Below are positions 16,076 to 27,417 of a stretch of DNA of 52,800 bases, piece by piece (the stretch's first letter is position 1; the number at the start of each line of letters is the position of its first letter). The notes under the pieces are model-generated. The model made no database searches. It had not been told where the DNA came from and was given only the letters and a program-made list of their open reading frames with translations. The translations under genes were made by a program, and so were the position numbers. Origin of the DNA: Microcoleaceae cyanobacterium. GTDB taxonomy: Bacteria > Cyanobacteriota > Cyanobacteriia > Cyanobacteriales > Microcoleaceae. The stretch spans positions 1 through 52,800 of the forward strand of contig JBOFUV010000064.1 of the NCBI GenBank assembly GCA_051652765.1, in the 5' to 3' direction.

Positions 16076-16148
16076 GGGCATGTAGCTCAGTGGATAGAGC
16101 ATCAGGTTCCGGTCCTGAGGGTCAGGGGTTCGAATCCCTTCATGCTCG
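16076..16148 (+). tRNA. trnR: tRNA-Arg(CCG)
   Basis: Acceptor stem GGGCATG/CATGCTC, D arm, anticodon arm TCAGG-TTCCGGT-CCTGA, T loop GGTTCGAATCC; CCA not encoded. Confidence 0.95.
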
Positions 16149-20215: not shown

Positions 20216-21025
20216 TTAGGGGTGAGCATAACGCAAACGATCCAACAAAGAAGGTCGCTTCAGATTGGTGGTTGCCTCATCTAACGGCAGGCGACGGGTA
20301 GACGGACGCAGAACATTAACTTGATAAACTTTTCTGTTGGTTAAGTCAACCCCGGTCAGCCACCCACTCTTGGCATGATAGGCCCCTGTATCAATGCCTA
20401 ACCACCCCTGACCCTGAACTAACGCCCCTGGCTCCACGCCACTAAAGGTAAACGTAATCGTATGGCCCACAATAATCAACTTTTGATTGAAGTAAGGCTT
20501 AGGAATTTGATGAAACTCATTGCGAATCCAGCAAAACTCGGCTGCTGTTTGTTGTGCCAGGGGAATACTCGGATGGATGCCCGCATGAACCAGCCAGGTA
20601 TCTCCCAGATCAAGATAAAGAGGCAGGGCTTTCATCCATTGCAAATGATCTCGTGGAATGATGGCTGCCTCTTGGTAACTCGCAATAGTGGCATGGCCTC
20701 CGCCGTAAAGCCAAGCTTGCCAAGCTTGTGGATTTTGTCCTTTTTCAGGTAAGGCACTGATCATCATGTGTTCATGGTTGCCCAGAATACAGCGATAGGG
20801 GCTATTTTTAACAAACTCAACGACCCGAGCACTCTGAGGGCCTCGATCAATCAAATCCCCCAGAAAATAAACTTCATCCGTTGCTCCAGGTGCAAGCTGA
20901 TCCAATAATGTCATCAAGCCTTCATAATGCCCATGAACATCACCGATGACGATACGTCGTCGGCCAGCAGGGCTGCTCAACCCTGAAGATTGCCTACCCA
21001 ACTTAGAACTAGAACTAGCACTCAT
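20216..21025 (-). CDS. Ser/Thr protein phosphatase (calcineurin-like metallophosphoesterase)
   Basis: GDVHG, GDLIDRGP, GNHE, VHAG, GHT, IDTG. Confidence 0.92.
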   Translation of the reverse strand: MSASSSSKLGRQSSGLSSPAGRRRIVIGDVHGHYEGLMTLLDQLAPGATDEVYFLGDLIDRGPQSARVVEFVKNSPYRCILGNHEHMMISALPEKGQNPQAWQAWLYGGGHATIASYQEAAIIPRDHLQWMKALPLYLDLGDTWLVHAGIHPSIPLAQQTAAEFCWIRNEFHQIPKPYFNQKLIIVGHTITFTFSGVEPGALVQGQGWLGIDTGAYHAKSGWLTGVDLTNRKVYQVNVLRPSTRRLPLDEATTNLKRPSLLDRLRYAHP

Positions 21026-21762
21026 CGACTCAAGGCGTTGAAAAAGTTTTGTAAGCCTGTCAGCAACCCTTGTTTTGGAGTTGAACCCTTCGGAGAGTTC
21101 GTGTCTTGGCCCCCACGGACGTTGAAGAAAATTTCCTCCAGTCGGTCTGCATTTGGCTTAGTGGGTTCTTGAGCAAGACAGCGATTCTCGCCTTCAATTT
21201 CTTGCCAGACTTCCCAAGGAGAGGGATAGCAGCGAAACAGCACTCCTGACTCCAAGGACTTCACATAGTAGCAAGATTCAATGGTTTGAATGAAGCGCTC
21301 TCGCAGTTGACGGGCTGCATATCCAATTCCCACTACAGCAATGTCCTCAAGACGAGGATTGAGCAGAATTACCGGGCGATCGCCCGCCAGTTGAGACAAC
21401 TTCTCGACCTGCCCAACTTCTACAGGAGAGGGTGCAATCACCAGAAAGCATTCATCATCAGGTTCTAAACGGGTCTCAATTGGAGAAGCACTTGTTCCTA
21501 AATCTGTGACTCGAAATGCAGTCTGTCCCCAATCTCGACGCGCCAGAGCAGCAGCCCCCGTATCCGGAAAAAACACCTTGAGCTGAGTGCCGCGTTCAGC
21601 AATCGTGGGAATAAATTGTTGAGCAATGGACTGCGCTTGCAGTTCAATCTCAGGAAATACCAATTCAACTTGAAGCAGCTTATAGCCTGCATCAAGGGCA
21701 GCAATAGTCGCTTGCTTAGCCTGCTCTACTGCTTCATCAAGGCTCTTGGGCAACTGAACCAT
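21022..21762 (-). CDS. DUF1995 family protein
   Basis: FFPDTGAAALARRDW, LNPRLED, LFRCYPSPW; ATG at 21762. Confidence 0.88.
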   Translation of the reverse strand: MVQLPKSLDEAVEQAKQATIAALDAGYKLLQVELVFPEIELQAQSIAQQFIPTIAERGTQLKVFFPDTGAAALARRDWGQTAFRVTDLGTSASPIETRLEPDDECFLVIAPSPVEVGQVEKLSQLAGDRPVILLNPRLEDIAVVGIGYAARQLRERFIQTIESCYYVKSLESGVLFRCYPSPWEVWQEIEGENRCLAQEPTKPNADRLEEIFFNVRGGQDTNSPKGSTPKQGLLTGLQNFFNALSR

Positions 21763-22247
21763 ATCTCTCAAACTCAAAGTTTAACTTCTCGCACAAGGAA
21801 TAGCTAATAATTCCTATTCTAACTCTACTTCTTCAGATTCTTCAGAGGTTAATAGACACCGGACACATAGATGAGAGCCTTCGCTCAAACCCCTACCCCC
21901 TTCTCTTGGGCCAGAATTAGGTGTCATTTTTGCCTTGAAAACTTTGTTTGAGATCTTGAGGATGATTTGTTGTCACCAAAGATCTAGGCCCTAGACCGGA
22001 TCTGGCAAGCTTTGTAAACTACTGGCCTAACTGATTGCCTTGACAGATCTGAGCCAAAAACTGCACAAGCTTTTCAACTCAGGACTTACACAAGAACAAT
22101 AGAAATAGTAGGTCGCTTGAGCTGCTCGAGCAGATCATTGGAAAGCAACCCATGCTTGAGTTGATAGACTGTGCAACCCCTGTGGTAGGCCAGGGTTTTC
22201 AGTCTTGTCCAAACCAATAGAGCACAGGCAATGTGTAGGAGATTTAG

Positions 22248-22531
22248 GGGTTTGGTATGAGATCAACGCGGGTTTGGTGTGAGATCAATGCGGGTTTGGT
22301 GTGAGATCAACGCAGGTTTGGTATGAGATCAACGCAGGTTTGGTATGAGATCAACGCAGGTTTGGTATGAGATCAACGCAGGTTTGGTATGAGATCAACG
22401 CGGGTTTGGTATGAGATCAATGCGGGTTTGGTGTGAGATCAATGCGGGTTTAGTATGAGATCAACGCGGGTTTGGTAAGAGATCAACGCGGGTTTGGTAA
22501 GAGATCAACGCGGGTTTAGTGTGAGATCAAT
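22248..22531 (+). repeat. 22-bp tandem repeat, 13 copies (GGGTTTGGTATGAGATCAACGC), last copy partial
   Basis: Exact 22-bp period with no spacers and scattered point variants. Confidence 0.95.
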
Positions 22532-22575
22532 CTGAACTTAAACGTAACCCGCCACAGATTTATTCAATAATCAAG

Positions 22576-22659
22576 TCAGAAATAACTTCTTCTACCATAG
22601 TGCTTGAGCCGAATCAGATCGCGCACCTGCTCCAACAGCTTTTTCGGGCATTGTTCCAT
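22576..22659 (-). pseudogene. intI: Truncated integron integrase (IntI N-terminal remnant)
   Basis: Translates MEQCPKKLLEQVRDLIRLKHY-GRRSYF*. The first 21 aa match the IntI start (PKKLLDQVRxxIRLKHYS), divergent from the cassette array. Confidence 0.8.
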
Positions 22660-22902
22660 TTGGGATTTATACAGAAAATTTCAAGGTAATCCTCCGAATA
22701 AATCGATATTAGGCCGAACATTGCTGTGTTTCATCGTGAGGATATACATCCTAAATTTCAGGATAATCCTCAAATTTAGGATGTATACCCAGAAAGTTTC
22801 AGTATAGTTGCAGTATTAGGGTGGACTATATGGAAAGTTTCAGGGTAATCATCCCAAAAGCGTTGGTTATGCAGAAAATTTCAATATAATAACTAGTTGG
22901 AC
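22660..22902 (+). other. Putative attI site and Pint/Pc promoter region
   Basis: Core GTTGGAC at 22896-22902; TATAAT at 22885-22890 with TTGGTT 16 bp upstream; phased GAAARTTTCA repeats; 45-bp palindrome at 22743-22787. Confidence 0.65.
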
Positions 22903-22963
22903 TCCCTTGTTTTATCAAATTAGAGTATTTGACAGATTCAACATAAATCACCCTACGTATGCC

Positions 22964-23989
22964 ATGTCTCCCGATTCTCGTCGCTCTGTCAGTCTGTTTG
23001 TCTGCTTGATATCTCTACCTTTTTCACTCATGTTTTTGGGTGATACGACACAATCCTCAAAGTCTGTCATGGTTCAAATGACAACACCAACAGGCATTCT
23101 TTATGGAACAGAGATCATTCCAACGCCTAATGTGCCAAAGCCAGTGGCACTGATCATTGCGGGTTCAGGTGCAACTGATCGCAACGGAAATAATCCTCTG
23201 GCTGGGCAGAATAATAGCCTCAAACTACTGGCTGAAGGATTAGCTGATCACGGCATTGCCTCGATACGATACGACAAGCGCGGTATTGGGGAAAGTTCAG
23301 CCGCAGGAGCTAGAGAAGTTGATTTGCGTTTCGATACCTATGTTGAAGATGCTGCACTTTGGATTCAGCAATTGCAGGCAGATTCTCGTTTCTCAAGCGT
23401 CACCGTGATTGGTCACAGTGAAGGATCTCTAATTGGAATGCTGGCGACTCAAAAAACTGGAGCAAATGCTTTTGTATCAATAGCAGGACCTGCTCAAACT
23501 GCATCACAAGATTTACGAGATCAACTGCGACCTAAATTGCCAGACGCATTATGGCAACAGAATGAGCAGATTCTTGCTGCTCTAGAACAAGGTAATACAG
23601 TGACTTCTGTGCCACCAGAACTAGACATGCTCTACAGATCGAGCGTACAACCCTATCTCATTTCCTGGTTTCGCTATACCCCTACTCAAGAGATTAAGCG
23701 TCTAACTGCACCTGTTCTAATCGTTCAAGGAACAACTGATATCCAAGTGCCTGTTAGTGAGGCGCAAGCCCTGAAAATGGCTAAGCCGGATGCGGAGATT
23801 AGAATCATTGAGGGGATGAATCATATCTTAAAAGCTGTTCCATTAGACCCTGAACAGCAAAATGCTTCCTATTTTGAGCCAACGCTGCCAGTTGTGCCTG
23901 AACTAGTTGAGGGCATAAGTCAATTTATTCACAGCCGTGGAATGCGCCGTGAGTCTAACCAGTCGCTGCACCGGAACGCCGAAATATAG
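22964..23989 (+). CDS. Alpha/beta hydrolase (cassette 1; start uncertain, ORF open from 22907)
   Basis: IIAGSGATDRNGN, RYDKRG, GHSEG, QGTTDIQV, GMNH; reads into attC1. Confidence 0.85.
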   Translation: MSPDSRRSVSLFVCLISLPFSLMFLGDTTQSSKSVMVQMTTPTGILYGTEIIPTPNVPKPVALIIAGSGATDRNGNNPLAGQNNSLKLLAEGLADHGIASIRYDKRGIGESSAAGAREVDLRFDTYVEDAALWIQQLQADSRFSSVTVIGHSEGSLIGMLATQKTGANAFVSIAGPAQTASQDLRDQLRPKLPDALWQQNEQILAALEQGNTVTSVPPELDMLYRSSVQPYLISWFRYTPTQEIKRLTAPVLIVQGTTDIQVPVSEAQALKMAKPDAEIRIIEGMNHILKAVPLDPEQQNASYFEPTLPVVPELVEGISQFIHSRGMRRESNQSLHRNAEI

Positions 23990-24039
23990 TCAGTTGAGTT
24001 ACAACGGTTATCTGCGTCCGGTGAGCTTGGTCGTTATAC
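23953..24039 (+). other. attC1 recombination site
   Basis: R'' GTCTAAC; L'' arm GCTgCACCGGaACG pairs with CGTCCGGTGAGC leaving 2 extrahelical bases; R' GTTATAC. Confidence 0.88.
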
Positions 24040-24134
24040 GTGTCAATATTCTGGTCGGGAAAGTGGTTTAGAAGTTGTCTGTTAGCATCAGATGAATTGC
24101 AGAAACAGAGAGTCATCTGGAAAAGCTCACAGAT

Positions 24135-24677
24135 TTGCCGAAAGATTTGCCCATCCCAGTAGACGATGGTGCTTGCAACCACTTGCTGGGGAAATCTTTG
24201 CCATTGATCGCTTTATCTTCAACTCAAGGCGAGTATGTAGATTTATCAGAGATTCCTGGTCATGTTGTCATTTATTGCTATCTAATGACGGGGCAACCTG
24301 GTATTCCTCTACCTGATAGATGGGACGAAATCGCTGGAGCAAGGGGATGTACTCCTCAATCATGTGCTTTTCGGGATCATTATCAAGAGCTAAATGAATT
24401 GGGAGCAAAAGTTTTTGGCTTTAGCACTCAAAGTACTGAATATCAGATGGAAGCGAAGATACGCTTGCATTTACCTTTTGATCTTTTGAGTGATTGTGAC
24501 TTGAGCCTTGCTAATACTTTGAAATTGCCAATGTTTGAAATAGAAGGCAAGCATCTTGTTAAACGAATTACACTGATTTCGGAAGATGGAAAAATTGTCA
24601 AAGTCTTCTATCCAGTTTTTCCACCCGATAGAAACGCCGATGAAGTTATTGACTGGCTGCAAGCTCACGCCGTATAA
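24135..24677 (+). CDS. Peroxiredoxin (BCP/AhpC-TSA family; cassette 2)
   Basis: LPIPVDDGAC, GARGCTPQSCAFRD, KVFYPVFPP; stop TAA lies inside attC2 R''. Confidence 0.88.
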   Translation: MPKDLPIPVDDGACNHLLGKSLPLIALSSTQGEYVDLSEIPGHVVIYCYLMTGQPGIPLPDRWDEIAGARGCTPQSCAFRDHYQELNELGAKVFGFSTQSTEYQMEAKIRLHLPFDLLSDCDLSLANTLKLPMFEIEGKHLVKRITLISEDGKIVKVFYPVFPPDRNADEVIDWLQAHAV

Positions 24678-24759
24678 CAACGCCCATGCACACCGACCGT
24701 CGAAAGTTGATCGGTTAGAGTTAAAGGTTATCTGCGGCGGGTGATTGGGAACGTTATGC
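24672..24759 (+). other. attC2 recombination site
   Basis: R'' GTATAAC; CCCATGCACACCGACCG / CGGCGGGTGATTGGG imperfect stem; R' GTTATGC. Confidence 0.85.
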
Positions 24760-25030
24760 CGCTGAGTTCTCGGTTGGGGCAGTACTTCAGGGTTGCTGGT
24801 GGGGACGATTAAGACGGAACTACGTTTAGCAGTGGCGAAGGGTGCAGCAGCTAAAGGTTCTGATTTGCTAGTATTGACGAAATTCTGCCCTTGGCGGATT
24901 TGCTCTTTTAAACAACGACGTATGACCTCAGAAATCCAACTACAAGCTTCTTCAGTAGAACTTGCTACAACGCTGGATTCCCTATCTACAAGCCTGTCTA
25001 CATATCTTTGGATAACACCTTGTAAGATCA

Positions 25031-25537
25031 ATGATATTTGCAACAGATGTTTACTATCGAGACAACAAAGCTGTTGCGGCAGGAGTACTGTTCAATGACT
25101 GGGAGGATCATGAACCTGTCAGTGAATTAATTGTCCAAATCGATAATGTGACAGAATATGAGCCAGGACAATTTTATAAGCGTGAGTTGCCTTGTATTTT
25201 GGAATTATTGAAACAACTCAAATGCTTGCCAACGTACATTATTGTTGATGGGTATGTTTATTTAGATGATGCAAAAAAGCCTGGACTCGGCAAGCGCTTG
25301 TATGATGCACTTCAAGCAAAATCTGTAGTTATCGGGGTTGCTAAGAGTCGGTTTAAAGATATATCCGATAAAAGTGAGATATTCAGAGGTGCTAGTCAGA
25401 AACCGTTGTACGTAACTGCGGTTGGCATCAACGAATCTGAGGCAAAAGATCTCATTTCAAGAATGTATGGTGAACACAGAATACCAGCAATGTTAAAGTT
25501 AGCGGATAGTCTCAGCAGACAAACTAGAGCGGCATAG
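25031..25537 (+). CDS. Endonuclease V family protein (cassette 3)
   Basis: TDVYY, YEPGQFYKRELP, VDGY, IGVAKS, KPLYVT, GEHRIP. Confidence 0.85.
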   Translation: MIFATDVYYRDNKAVAAGVLFNDWEDHEPVSELIVQIDNVTEYEPGQFYKRELPCILELLKQLKCLPTYIIVDGYVYLDDAKKPGLGKRLYDALQAKSVVIGVAKSRFKDISDKSEIFRGASQKPLYVTAVGINESEAKDLISRMYGEHRIPAMLKLADSLSRQTRAA

Positions 25538-25597
25538 CTATCTGGCTGGAGCGGATTGGTAAGAGTCTTCTGTAGCCGCTCAGCCGGATAGTTAGCT
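25532..25597 (+). other. attC3 recombination site (R'' AAC changed to AGC)
   Basis: GCATAGC; TATCTGGCTGgAGCGG / CCGCTCAGCCGGATA stem with extrahelical G; R' GTTAGCT. Confidence 0.8.
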
Positions 25598-25865
25598 TTC
25601 CAGCCCCAGCGGTAGGGTTCTGTCAGGGAACTTTCTTCCCAACAGGTTCCGGTTTTGTTCAGTTGCTTGTAGGAGTGCGATCGCCCCCAATTAAAGGTTG
25701 GGTTCGTCCAGGTTTTCTTCACCATCCACAGTCCCAGAGCATGGTTTCTGAGATGGAAAGGTGTGGTTTTTGTAGGGTGTTGGTGAGAGTGGGAAGTCAG
25801 GAGAGGTGTCAGGGGGGCGATCACTTGAAAGTCCCTGTTTGTTGAGGGAAAGGGCGATCGCAGCA

Positions 25866-25929
25866 AGCTAACAATCCAAATGCAGCGGACTAACGAAAAC
25901 CGCTAGTGCATTGCGAAAAGGAACTGTCG
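25866..25929 (+). other. Truncated attC4 (left half only)
   Basis: R'' AGCTAAC followed by AATCCAAATGCAGCGGAC; no matching L'/R' downstream. Confidence 0.65.
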
Positions 25930-26421
25930 TATTATCTAGCCCATCTAGTCCTTAAACCCTGGCTTAAAACCCGGTAGAAGCATTGTTTTTTCGCCTGCAT
26001 CACACAAAGATCAACTTTCAGAACCTTAGTGCGATCGCATGAAGGGTTGTGCATCAAAGGGTTGTGCATCAGAGAGATGTGAGTCTGATAGAGTGAGGAA
26101 TCATAGAACACACAACAATTCCAGGGTTGTATGTTCCATGGATGAGAATTGGCAGTGTCAAGCTAGACATGTTCATGATGCGATTTCAGGCTGTGAAGAT
26201 CGAATTAGGATATTGATTCAGGTCATTTTGACGATTCATTCCTCTGGTTTGATTTAGCGCTCGCTTGCCCTTTCCATCCCTCCGTTAAAAAACAGCGGGG
26301 ATTTATCGGAGGACAGCATGGCAAATTAGGCTCAGAGACAAACGACAGGAAATTACAGCGTTCAGTTACGGCGCTAAAATATGAAGCGTGACCCATAGAT
26401 GACCTACAGAATCTAATTGCC

Positions 26422-27417
26422 ATGACACGCAAAACAACTCGTCGTCGATTCCTCCTGACAGGAATGGCTGTTGCAAGTGGAGTGGTTGGCAGTAAAGCCC
26501 TTCAGCCGCAACCCGCCCAGACTTTTGCAACCTCGGATATTCAACTGCCTTCAATCGCAACGATGCCCGAACGAGTCCTAGGAAAAACAGGTATTAAGGT
26601 TCCTATTTTTGGTCTGGGCGGAGCCGGTCAAACGCCCTTGTCTAAATCCGGGCAGGAAGCTGAAGCGATCGCCCAGATTGAAGCGGCTTTAAGGTTGGGG
26701 ATTCGGTATTTTGATACGGCTTCTAGCTATGGGCCGAGTGAAGACTACTTGGGAAAGACGTTGCCGCCCCATCGTTCTAATATTTTTCTGGCCACCAAAA
26801 CGGCTGCTCGTGATCGTGATGGGGCATGGCGGGAGTTAGAGCGATCGCTGCAACGGCTCAACACGGACTACCTTGACCTGTGGCAGTTGCATCACGTTTC
26901 ATTTCAGGAGACCCTTGACCAGATTTTCAGCAATCAGGGCGCAATTAAAGCCCTAGAAGAAGCCAAAGCTCAGAAAATCATTAAATTCTCTGGGATTACG
27001 GGACATCATGAACCTGATGTAATTGCTGAGGGATTGCGTCGTTATCCGTTTGATACAACTTTGATCGCCCTTAATGCGGCGGATGTTCATCACCCGCGCC
27101 CGTTTGGGCCAACGGTGTTGCCGATTGCCAAGGCCAATCAAGTTGGGGTGATTGCCATGAAAGTTCCGGCCTATGGTCGCTTATTTAAACCGGACAGACT
27201 TGCAGGAATGCATCAGGCCATGGGTTATGTATTGTCCTTGGAGGGGGTTCACTGCTGTATTATTGCGGCTGAATCGGTGGCACAGCTAGAGTCTAACCTA
27301 CGGGTTGCCCAAGCCTTCAAACCCTTGAACCGGGAAGAAATGGTGGCAATTGAAGGGAGAAAGGCTTCTACCTGGGAAGATAATACCTTTTTCCGAGTTT
27401 GGATTAGGAATAGGTAA
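26422..27417 (+). CDS. Aldo/keto reductase with Tat signal peptide
   Basis: TRRRFL twin-arginine leader; YFDTASSYG, LATKT, DYLDLWQLH. Confidence 0.9.
   Translation: MTRKTTRRRFLLTGMAVASGVVGSKALQPQPAQTFATSDIQLPSIATMPERVLGKTGIKVPIFGLGGAGQTPLSKSGQEAEAIAQIEAALRLGIRYFDTASSYGPSEDYLGKTLPPHRSNIFLATKTAARDRDGAWRELERSLQRLNTDYLDLWQLHHVSFQETLDQIFSNQGAIKALEEAKAQKIIKFSGITGHHEPDVIAEGLRRYPFDTTLIALNAADVHHPRPFGPTVLPIAKANQVGVIAMKVPAYGRLFKPDRLAGMHQAMGYVLSLEGVHCCIIAAESVAQLESNLRVAQAFKPLNREEMVAIEGRKASTWEDNTFFRVWIRNR

What the first reader, a model, noticed from the sequence alone, without database searches (positions are those of the whole stretch)
22896..25872. Every cassette's two ends are reverse complements, a record of circular excision and integration
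Seen: cassette 1 GTTGGACTC (22896) vs GAGTCTAAC (23951-23959), 8/9. Cassette 2 GTTATACG (24033) vs CGTATAAC (24671-24678), 8/8. Cassette 3 GTTATGCCGCT (24753) vs AGCGGCATAGC (25528-25538), 10/11. Cassette 4 GTTAGCTT (25591) vs AAGCTAAC (25865-25872), 8/8. The R'' and R' within each in-array attC match each other less well. Known: this pattern is expected when circular cassettes recombine at G/TT. It fixes the crossovers at 22896/7, 24033/4, 24753/4 and 25591/2.
Basis: partly seen in the sequence, partly recalled or inferred. Interest (0 to 1): 0.75.

Follow-up and report, generated by a model that had tools for sequence, protein, structure and literature searches.

The report
Gene cassettes at scattered integron sites
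The matching ends are the ordinary mark of integron gene cassettes; what is unusual is that their docking site is one of 22 related copies scattered over this cyanobacterium's genome, in which no intact enzyme gene to load them was found.

Summary
Cassette 1 recurs in three other genomes with homology stopping at the proposed junctions. This is textbook integron cassette anatomy. Corrections: cassette 4's attC is half deleted, and attC3 has a damaged core. This attI exists in 22 copies on 20 contigs, with unrelated flanks and nearly all different first cassettes; no intact intI was found in the assembly. Twelve copies share one intI break; three module copies start at an IS5-like MITE end. Best reading: genuine cassettes on an integrase-less attI platform that has itself spread through the chromosome. 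The finding as stated is known (about 0.15); the dispersed platform lifts it to 0.45.

The parts
22248..22530 (.). 22-bp tandem array, 12.9 copies; dispersed repeat that also stands without attI elsewhere in the genome
22510..22596 (.). imperfect hairpin (arms 22510-22529 / 22533-22552) and block joined to intI at codon 21; same joint in 12 of 22 attI copies
22597..22659 (-). 5' stub of the integron integrase gene, 21 codons, divergent from the array
   Evidence: 56 of 63 nt identical to the start of the G002 gene, which scores 475.6 bits on TIGR02249, cut-off 265, read with X at its one stop
22660..22902 (+). attI region: repeats at about 40-bp spacing (22674, 22753, 22792, 22833, 22874); inferred L box 22884-22890, 5-nt spacer, R box 22896-22902, crossover 22896/7
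   Evidence: box assignment is inference by analogy with known attI
22897..24033 (+). cassette 1, 1137 bp: alpha/beta hydrolase (likely 22964-23989, stop inside attC1)
   Evidence: PF12146 5e-17; same cassette at 88-89% in G002, G411, G494
23953..24039 (+). attC1, canonical: R'' AAC, L''/L' with two extrahelical bases, R' GTT
   Evidence: (z -2.20)
24034..24753 (+). cassette 2, 720 bp: redoxin / PrxQ-like peroxiredoxin (24135-24677)
   Evidence: PF08534 3e-16; G514 match starts at 24033, G318 match ends at 24756
24672..24759 (+). attC2, canonical
   Evidence: z -1.14; 62 bits
24754..25591 (+). cassette 3, 838 bp: 277-nt leader then endonuclease V-like gene (25031-25537)
   Evidence: PF04493 3.5e-12; first 141 nt shared at 91% with a cassette start on C82
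25532..25597 (+). attC3, short (66 nt), R'' core AGC instead of AAC
   Evidence: (z -2.35); not hit by the attC model
25592..25916 (+). cassette 4 remnant: no credible gene, ends in a half attC (25866-25916) lacking L' and R'
   Evidence: no homologue of its body in 61 genomes

Best explanation
22897-25916 is an integron array of three complete cassettes and one truncated one. Each cassette once existed as a circle whose attC had self-complementary R''/R' arms; IntI opened it between G and TT, leaving most of R' at the cassette's start and making the in-array attC sites chimeric (mechanism from established integron biochemistry; ends, folds and movement of cassette 1 shown here). The array sits behind an attI whose intI is cut to 21 codons. 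That attI platform is one of 22 related copies that spread over the chromosome (copy number and unrelated flanks shown). Inferred: the copies spread by at least two non-IntI routes, transposition inside an IS5-like MITE for some and recombination through the 22-bp repeat, intI stub or attI homology for others, and were loaded by an IntI that is now lost or was only transiently present; the arrays are at present frozen.
For: End matching: (56 other cassettes: 212 matches against null 133.1 +/- 7.8, 0 of 20,000 shuffles; own end better than in-array partner in 34, equal 9, worse 5 of 48). attC fold: 10 of 15 consensus pairs with double-sided changes in 32 sites incl. attC1 and attC2; rebuilt circular junctions fold as well or better than in-array ones in 9 of 9 comparisons. 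Exact boundaries elsewhere. 22 attI hits ending at the crossover, 0 hits in the reversed genome; 0 shared far-left flanks among the 20 that could be compared, 1 shared first cassette among 22. No intact IntI: best TIGR02249 match 63.9 bits against cut-off 265; tblastn with a full IntI finds only N-terminal pieces plus two 45-47% C-terminal hits at loci that one search lists as other tyrosine recombinases. Same break at 63 nt in 12 of 22, in both attI subtypes that are only about 65% alike. MITE end at the left edge on C45, C67, C101 with three different outer flanks, and the other MITE arm joined to the last attC on C50.
Against: The window copy has no MITE end on either side and no empty site could be found in the two congeneric genomes, so its own route of arrival is unknown. 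No copy shows both MITE ends with a target duplication; on C101 the attI is beyond the contig end. No full MITE transposase found (one 41-position PF13340 piece). The assembly has 158 contigs, so an unassembled intI is not excluded. The last 60 nt of attI are not significantly better conserved than the rest (9 of 60 against 50 of 242 variable columns in 9 copies, p=0.37). No sigma-70-type cassette promoter was found near attI. Top strands fold at least as well as bottom strands. Only cassette 1 has both ends confirmed in other genomes.
Confidence: 0.8

Rival explanations
1. Imported fragments: relatives each keep one ordinary integron; pieces containing attI and the first cassettes enter by natural transformation and insert ectopically through the 22-bp repeat, stub or attI homology. 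The dispersed attI sites never captured anything at their present places.
For: Ragged left ends (intI kept: 0 to 351 nt); truncated attC4 here and several half attC elsewhere; mosaic copies such as C103; attI and cassette 1 are 84-91% identical to G002 while flanking core genes are 73-75%; truncated copies of cassette 1 in G509 and G453.
Against: Three precise MITE-end insertions; 9 copies with complete ATG-to-GTT regions are 92-96% identical to each other's reference yet carry different first cassettes, which needs many donors.
Confidence: 0.35
2. Whole integrons with intact intI moved or duplicated many times, captured cassettes locally, and each then lost intI by deletion up to the neighbouring gene.
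For: Longer stubs end at neighbouring genes on C74, C51, C34, C138; G016 has tandem intI-attI units, two with intact genes; intI pseudogenes from intragenomic duplication are described (PMC2426708, passages).
Against: 12 of 22 copies share one break to the base, which independent deletions would not give; no orphan 3' part of intI is left anywhere.
Confidence: 0.15
3. The copy number is an assembly or strain-mixture artefact, or an intact intI is simply unassembled.
For: 158 contigs; five arrays end 132-134 nt before a contig end; no reads of this genome were available.
Against: Completeness 99.97, contamination 0.18; unique flanks; genomes in 1-5 contigs also hold several dispersed intI-attI loci.
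Confidence: 0.08
4. The matched ends are chance or a by-product of the GTT/AAC consensus.
For: Lengths were chosen after the fact; for cassette 4, 11.9% of the genome's R'' sites match equally well.
Against: Joint p about 1.5e-5; genome-wide 0 of 20,000 shuffles; homologues start with a perfect 9/9 match.
Confidence: 0.01

Closest known systems
Integron gene cassettes and attC sites (chromosomal integrons; cyanobacterial attC class)
   Same: Cassette runs from the first T of one R' to the G of the next; its own attC is the circular form (PMC2674596, passages); arrays hold chimeric attC (PMC4889954, passages); R and L boxes, extrahelical bases, promoterless genes in one direction; cyanobacteria are known to have integrons and their own attC model (PMC8352920, passages).
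   Different: Nothing for the cassettes; attC3 has a mutated core and attC4 is half deleted.
CALIN (cluster of attC lacking integron-integrase)
   Same: At least two attC and no integrase gene nearby; 95% of CALINs had no recognisable intI pseudogene (PMC4889954, section read whole).
   Different: This one keeps attI and the 5' 63 nt of intI, which that study's search for the C-terminal domain could not see; and it is one of many sister platforms, not a split-off or secondary-site insertion.
MITE-flanked class 1 integrons / integron mobilisation unit (IMU)
   Same: Non-autonomous ends moving an integron, in one case a defective one, with transposase in trans (PMC3575428, passages).
   Different: There two MITE copies flank one clinical integron; here an attI platform appears to lie inside one IS5-like MITE in 4 places, most copies lack MITE ends, and the copy number is 22 in one chromosome set.
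Genomes with several intI genes and intI pseudogenes
   Same: About one third of intI are pseudogenes, one fifth of lineages have more than one (PMC2426708, passages).
   Different: Scale (22 attI, none with an intact gene) and one shared truncation.
Cassette insertion at attG sites; delta-attI cassettes
   Same: Dispersal of cassettes over a genome (attG seen only as cited in PMC12614218 and the Xanthomonas preprint); attI pieces carried in arrays (PMC12901181, abstract).
   Different: Here the insertion point is a true attI homologue with its upstream region, not a genomic secondary site.

Membership tests
Integron gene cassette | attC with R'' (AAC) and R' (GTT) cores | tested here: met
   met for attC1 and attC2; attC3 has AGC; site 4 lacks R'
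Integron gene cassette | Bottom-strand hairpin with L''/L' pairing, unpaired spacer and extrahelical bases | tested here: met
   15 pairs, 10 with compensatory changes, conserved unpaired C and T in 32 sites incl. attC1, attC2; for attC3
Integron gene cassette | R' at the cassette start complementary to its own R'' (circular form) | tested here: met
Integron gene cassette | Moves as a unit: same cassette, exact ends, other neighbours | tested here: met
   cassette 1 in 3 of 7 matches elsewhere (2 independent contexts, as G411 and G494 share neighbours); cassette 2 one end each in two genomes; cassettes 3 and 4 not shown
Integron gene cassette | Excision and insertion by IntI | not testable with these tools
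   needs a recombination assay
Complete integron | Intact intI with the IntI-specific domain beside the array | tested here: not met
   only 21 codons here; no TIGR02249 hit over cut-off in the assembly
Complete integron | attI between intI start and first cassette, ending in a GTT core | tested here: met
   position, and 22 copies diverging after GTT; function untested
Complete integron | Cassette promoter Pc | tested here: inconclusive
   no sigma-70 consensus hit near attI; scan found 4 sites against 7.3 expected
CALIN | Two or more attC, no integron-integrase gene nearby | tested here: met
   though an attI and intI stub are present
MITE-mobilised integron (IMU-like) | Terminal inverted repeats on both sides of this array | tested here: not met
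   no MITE hit on C64; left end only on C45, C67, C101; right end plus eroded left piece on C50
MITE-mobilised integron (IMU-like) | Target-site duplication around the whole unit | tested here: inconclusive
   the three copies with a left end run into contig ends
MITE-mobilised integron (IMU-like) | Cognate transposase in trans | tested here: inconclusive
   only a MITE-borne PF13340 fragment found; other transposase families not searched

The most novel reading that the evidence does not exclude
A distributed integron: an integrase-free attI platform has become a mobile element in its own right, seeding about 20 cassette landing sites across a cyanobacterial chromosome, each loaded independently by IntI acting in trans; many cyanobacterial CALINs would then be such platforms, invisible to searches for the intI C-terminal domain.
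Probability: 0.35. Interest if true: 0.75.

Novelty: new variant of a known kind. Interest (0 to 1): 0.45.

Why it matters
The matched ends themselves are known and serve only to mark cassette limits. The context bears on an open question, how CALINs arise: here most arrays keep attI and a few codons of intI, a state that a published genome survey would have scored as 'no pseudogene'. If the platform spreads and is loaded in trans, a genome gains many first-position expression slots instead of one. The 22 natural attI variants and about 90 attC sites of one genome also give a ready test set for a cyanobacterial attI, which I found defined in none of the papers seen.

Tried and rejected
Rfam: only a tRNA at 16076. 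A first heuristic attC finder gave many false sites and missed attC2; replaced by an iterated nhmmer model (92 hits, 0 in the reversed genome). Empty-site search: the flanking DUF1995 and aldo/keto reductase genes lie on different contigs with other neighbours in G001 and G002. Idea that intI-attI is itself a cassette bounded by attC: in G016 the repeated units start with a cassette leader fused to a release-factor gene piece (gene name recognised from recall), not at a clean GTT; not supported. Selection on the attI core: not significant. Promoter scan: nothing above chance. attI module in plasmids: no match; by DNA only in 3 of 144 family genomes, all of the genus. Earlier findings of the scan: none. 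One search was translated one base out of frame; corrected. Paper searches for multi-copy attI or cyanobacterial dispersed integrons listed nothing describing this; the library lacks most subscription journals and I read no supplements, where cyanobacterial CALIN lists may be.

Full report
Setting. The window is contig C64 of a 5.04-Mb assembly in 158 contigs. I take the host to be a cyanobacterium from 3231 copies of the HIP1 octamer (the meaning of that motif is recalled). The array lies between a DUF1995 gene (21022-21777, minus) and an aldo/keto reductase gene (26422-27417).

1. The observation. Since lengths were chosen afterwards and three bases are invariant, I used positions 4-8 only. 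The window gives 19 of 20; with R'' drawn from the 84 other R'' sites of the genome this is reached at 1.5e-5. To get those sites I built an attC profile by iterated nhmmer: 92 hits, none in the reversed genome. All 56 start-to-next-attC intervals outside the window up to 6.5 kb, uncurated and so including some that span missed sites, give 212 matches against 133.1 +/- 7.8 in 20,000 shuffles, none reaching it; in the 48 with an R', the cassette's own start matches R'' better than the in-array R' in 34, equally in 9, worse in 5. attC3 was missed by the model and entered by hand. Rebuilt circular junctions fold as well or better than in-array ones (8-nt extension: -16.5 against -15.3, -14.8 against -12.4, -22.1 against -12.0 kcal/mol), though top strands fold no worse than bottom strands. 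An alignment of attC1, attC2 and 30 sites picked from relatives gives the canonical fold with 10 of 15 pairs showing double-sided changes and two conserved unpaired bases.

2. Boundaries in other genomes. Cassette 1 is in G002 at 88.6%, aligned 22897-24037, and in G411 and G494 at 88%, 22896-24036. All three start with a perfect match to their own R'', so the window's one mismatch is a later point change. G411 and G494 share neighbours and count as one context; there it follows an attC, here an attI. The other four matches (G509 twice, G453, G414) are truncated or gene-only; none runs across a junction. For cassette 2, a G514 match starts at 24033 behind an attI-like site and a G318 match ends at 24756; but of the 12 loci inspected (11 of the 32 matches outside this genome's own two, plus one G002 locus) only 2 had an attC model hit, so this gene family is often not in a cassette. 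Cassette 3 shares only its first 141 nt (91%) with a C82 cassette; the two differ at three of the first eleven bases and each difference is mirrored in its own R''. Cassette 4 has no credible gene, no homologue in 61 genomes, and its attC stops at about 25916.

3. Upstream of 22896, on the minus strand, 22659-22597 encodes the first 21 residues of an integron integrase, 56 of 63 nt identical to the G002 gene (that gene scores 475.6 bits on TIGR02249 and has one stop). So 22896 is the attI crossover. Beyond the break lie a hairpin block and 12.9 copies of a 22-mer. A 45-nt attI profile finds 22 copies on 20 contigs at E up to 0.0012, two of them not in the training set, none in the decoy. Identity to the window copy is 92-96% for eight complete ones and down to about 60-70% for a second subtype. 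Far-left flanks are unrelated in all 20 comparable copies, and only one pair of the 22 shares a first cassette. Seventeen have at least one attC within 6.5 kb; of the five without, three lie within about 2 kb of a contig end. No intact intI was found. The intI kept is 63 nt in 12 copies, always joined to the same hairpin block and in both subtypes; 61-351 nt in five; none detected in five. On C45, C67 and C101 the module extends left to the exact end of a 270-290-bp element with terminal inverted repeats and a remnant transposase start (PF13340 on one copy; IS5-like is my label from that family), with three different outer flanks; on C50 the last attC joins directly to the other arm of that element. 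The window copy has neither end.

4. Relatives. G002 has 7 attI pattern matches with at most 2 mismatches (9 at 3, against 3 for the control pattern), G001 one weak one. The first 100 residues of IntI hit 112 of 301 genomes of the order; this genome has the most matches listed, 11 (16 of 21 candidates scored), the next 6. Of 20 loci that I picked from 7 genomes in 1-5 contigs, 12 have an attC on the cassette side; 17 align to only part of IntI and the other three show stops or a frameshift. Those attI regions look mostly unlike each other within a genome, so they show that dispersal is real in closed genomes but not the same recent expansion. G016 has several intI-attI units in tandem, two intact.

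5. Mechanism. Shown: cassette anatomy, movement of cassette 1, multiplicity of attI, absence of an intact intI from the assembly, one shared truncation, MITE ends on a few copies. From established knowledge: G/TT crossover and circular intermediates (PMC2674596, PMC4889954, PMC8352920, passages). Inferred: one intI was truncated by fusion to the repeat block; the platform then spread, partly inside a MITE and partly by recombination between copies, and was loaded by an IntI now missing. Whether loading happened at the present sites or in donors (linear transforming DNA is a substrate for integron recombination in Vibrio, PMC12614218, passages) I cannot decide. Against function today: no significant extra conservation of the attI core (p=0.37), no promoter found, a damaged attC3, a half attC4.

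6. Novelty. Matched ends: already known. Several or broken intI genes per genome (PMC2426708, passages), CALINs (PMC4889954, section 20 read whole; the Xanthomonas and Archaea preprints, passages), MITE-moved class 1 integrons (PMC3575428, passages) and partial attI inside cassettes (PMC12901181, abstract) are known. I found no description of about 20 related integrase-less attI platforms in one genome in searches; the library is incomplete, PMC3518468 (passages) added nothing, and no supplements were read. Verdict: the finding is right but ordinary (about 0.15 alone); the system it belongs to is a new variant of a known kind, interest 0.45.

Noticed in passing
window 24117-24119: Three homologues of the redoxin gene have ATG at this position; the window has CTG in the same frame, 6 codons before the TTG at 24135. 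The start may be damaged.
   Followed up: partly
G000, at least 9 places (C10, C21, C22, C30, C34, C50, C67, C74, C82, C116, C136): A gene-less cassette of about 215 bp (about 136 nt to R'') recurs many times with a conserved leader; several contigs break in or near it; MITE insertions hit the same spot of it on C68 and C50.
   Followed up: partly
window 24754-24894 and G000 C82:9214-9353: Two cassettes with unrelated bodies share a 141-nt leader, yet their first bases differ in step with their own R''; may bear on how cassettes are made or corrected.
   Followed up: partly
window 22248-22530; G000 C63, C109, C134, C144, C145, C101, C74: The 22-bp tandem array also occurs without an attI, on C134 inverted at the head of a cassette array and on C144 behind one; nature unknown.
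   Followed up: partly
window 26060-26107: A 48-nt repeat also found just upstream of the C61 attI, on C145, C56 and twice in G002.
   Followed up: partly
G016 C1:4478600-4498300 (L033, L031): Tandem intI-attI units interleaved with cassettes, two intact, repeated with a piece of a neighbouring gene.
   Followed up: partly
G000 C116, C138, C61, C71: An attC lies upstream of the attI module in the same direction, so some platforms sit inside or behind another array.
   Followed up: no
window 22740-22790: Near-perfect 25-nt inverted repeat inside the attI region; stronger here than in sister copies.
   Followed up: no
window 16076-16148: tRNA gene, 6 kb from the array; no link seen.
   Followed up: no
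window 7214-51019: Many short 11-15-bp tandem repeats between genes.
   Followed up: no
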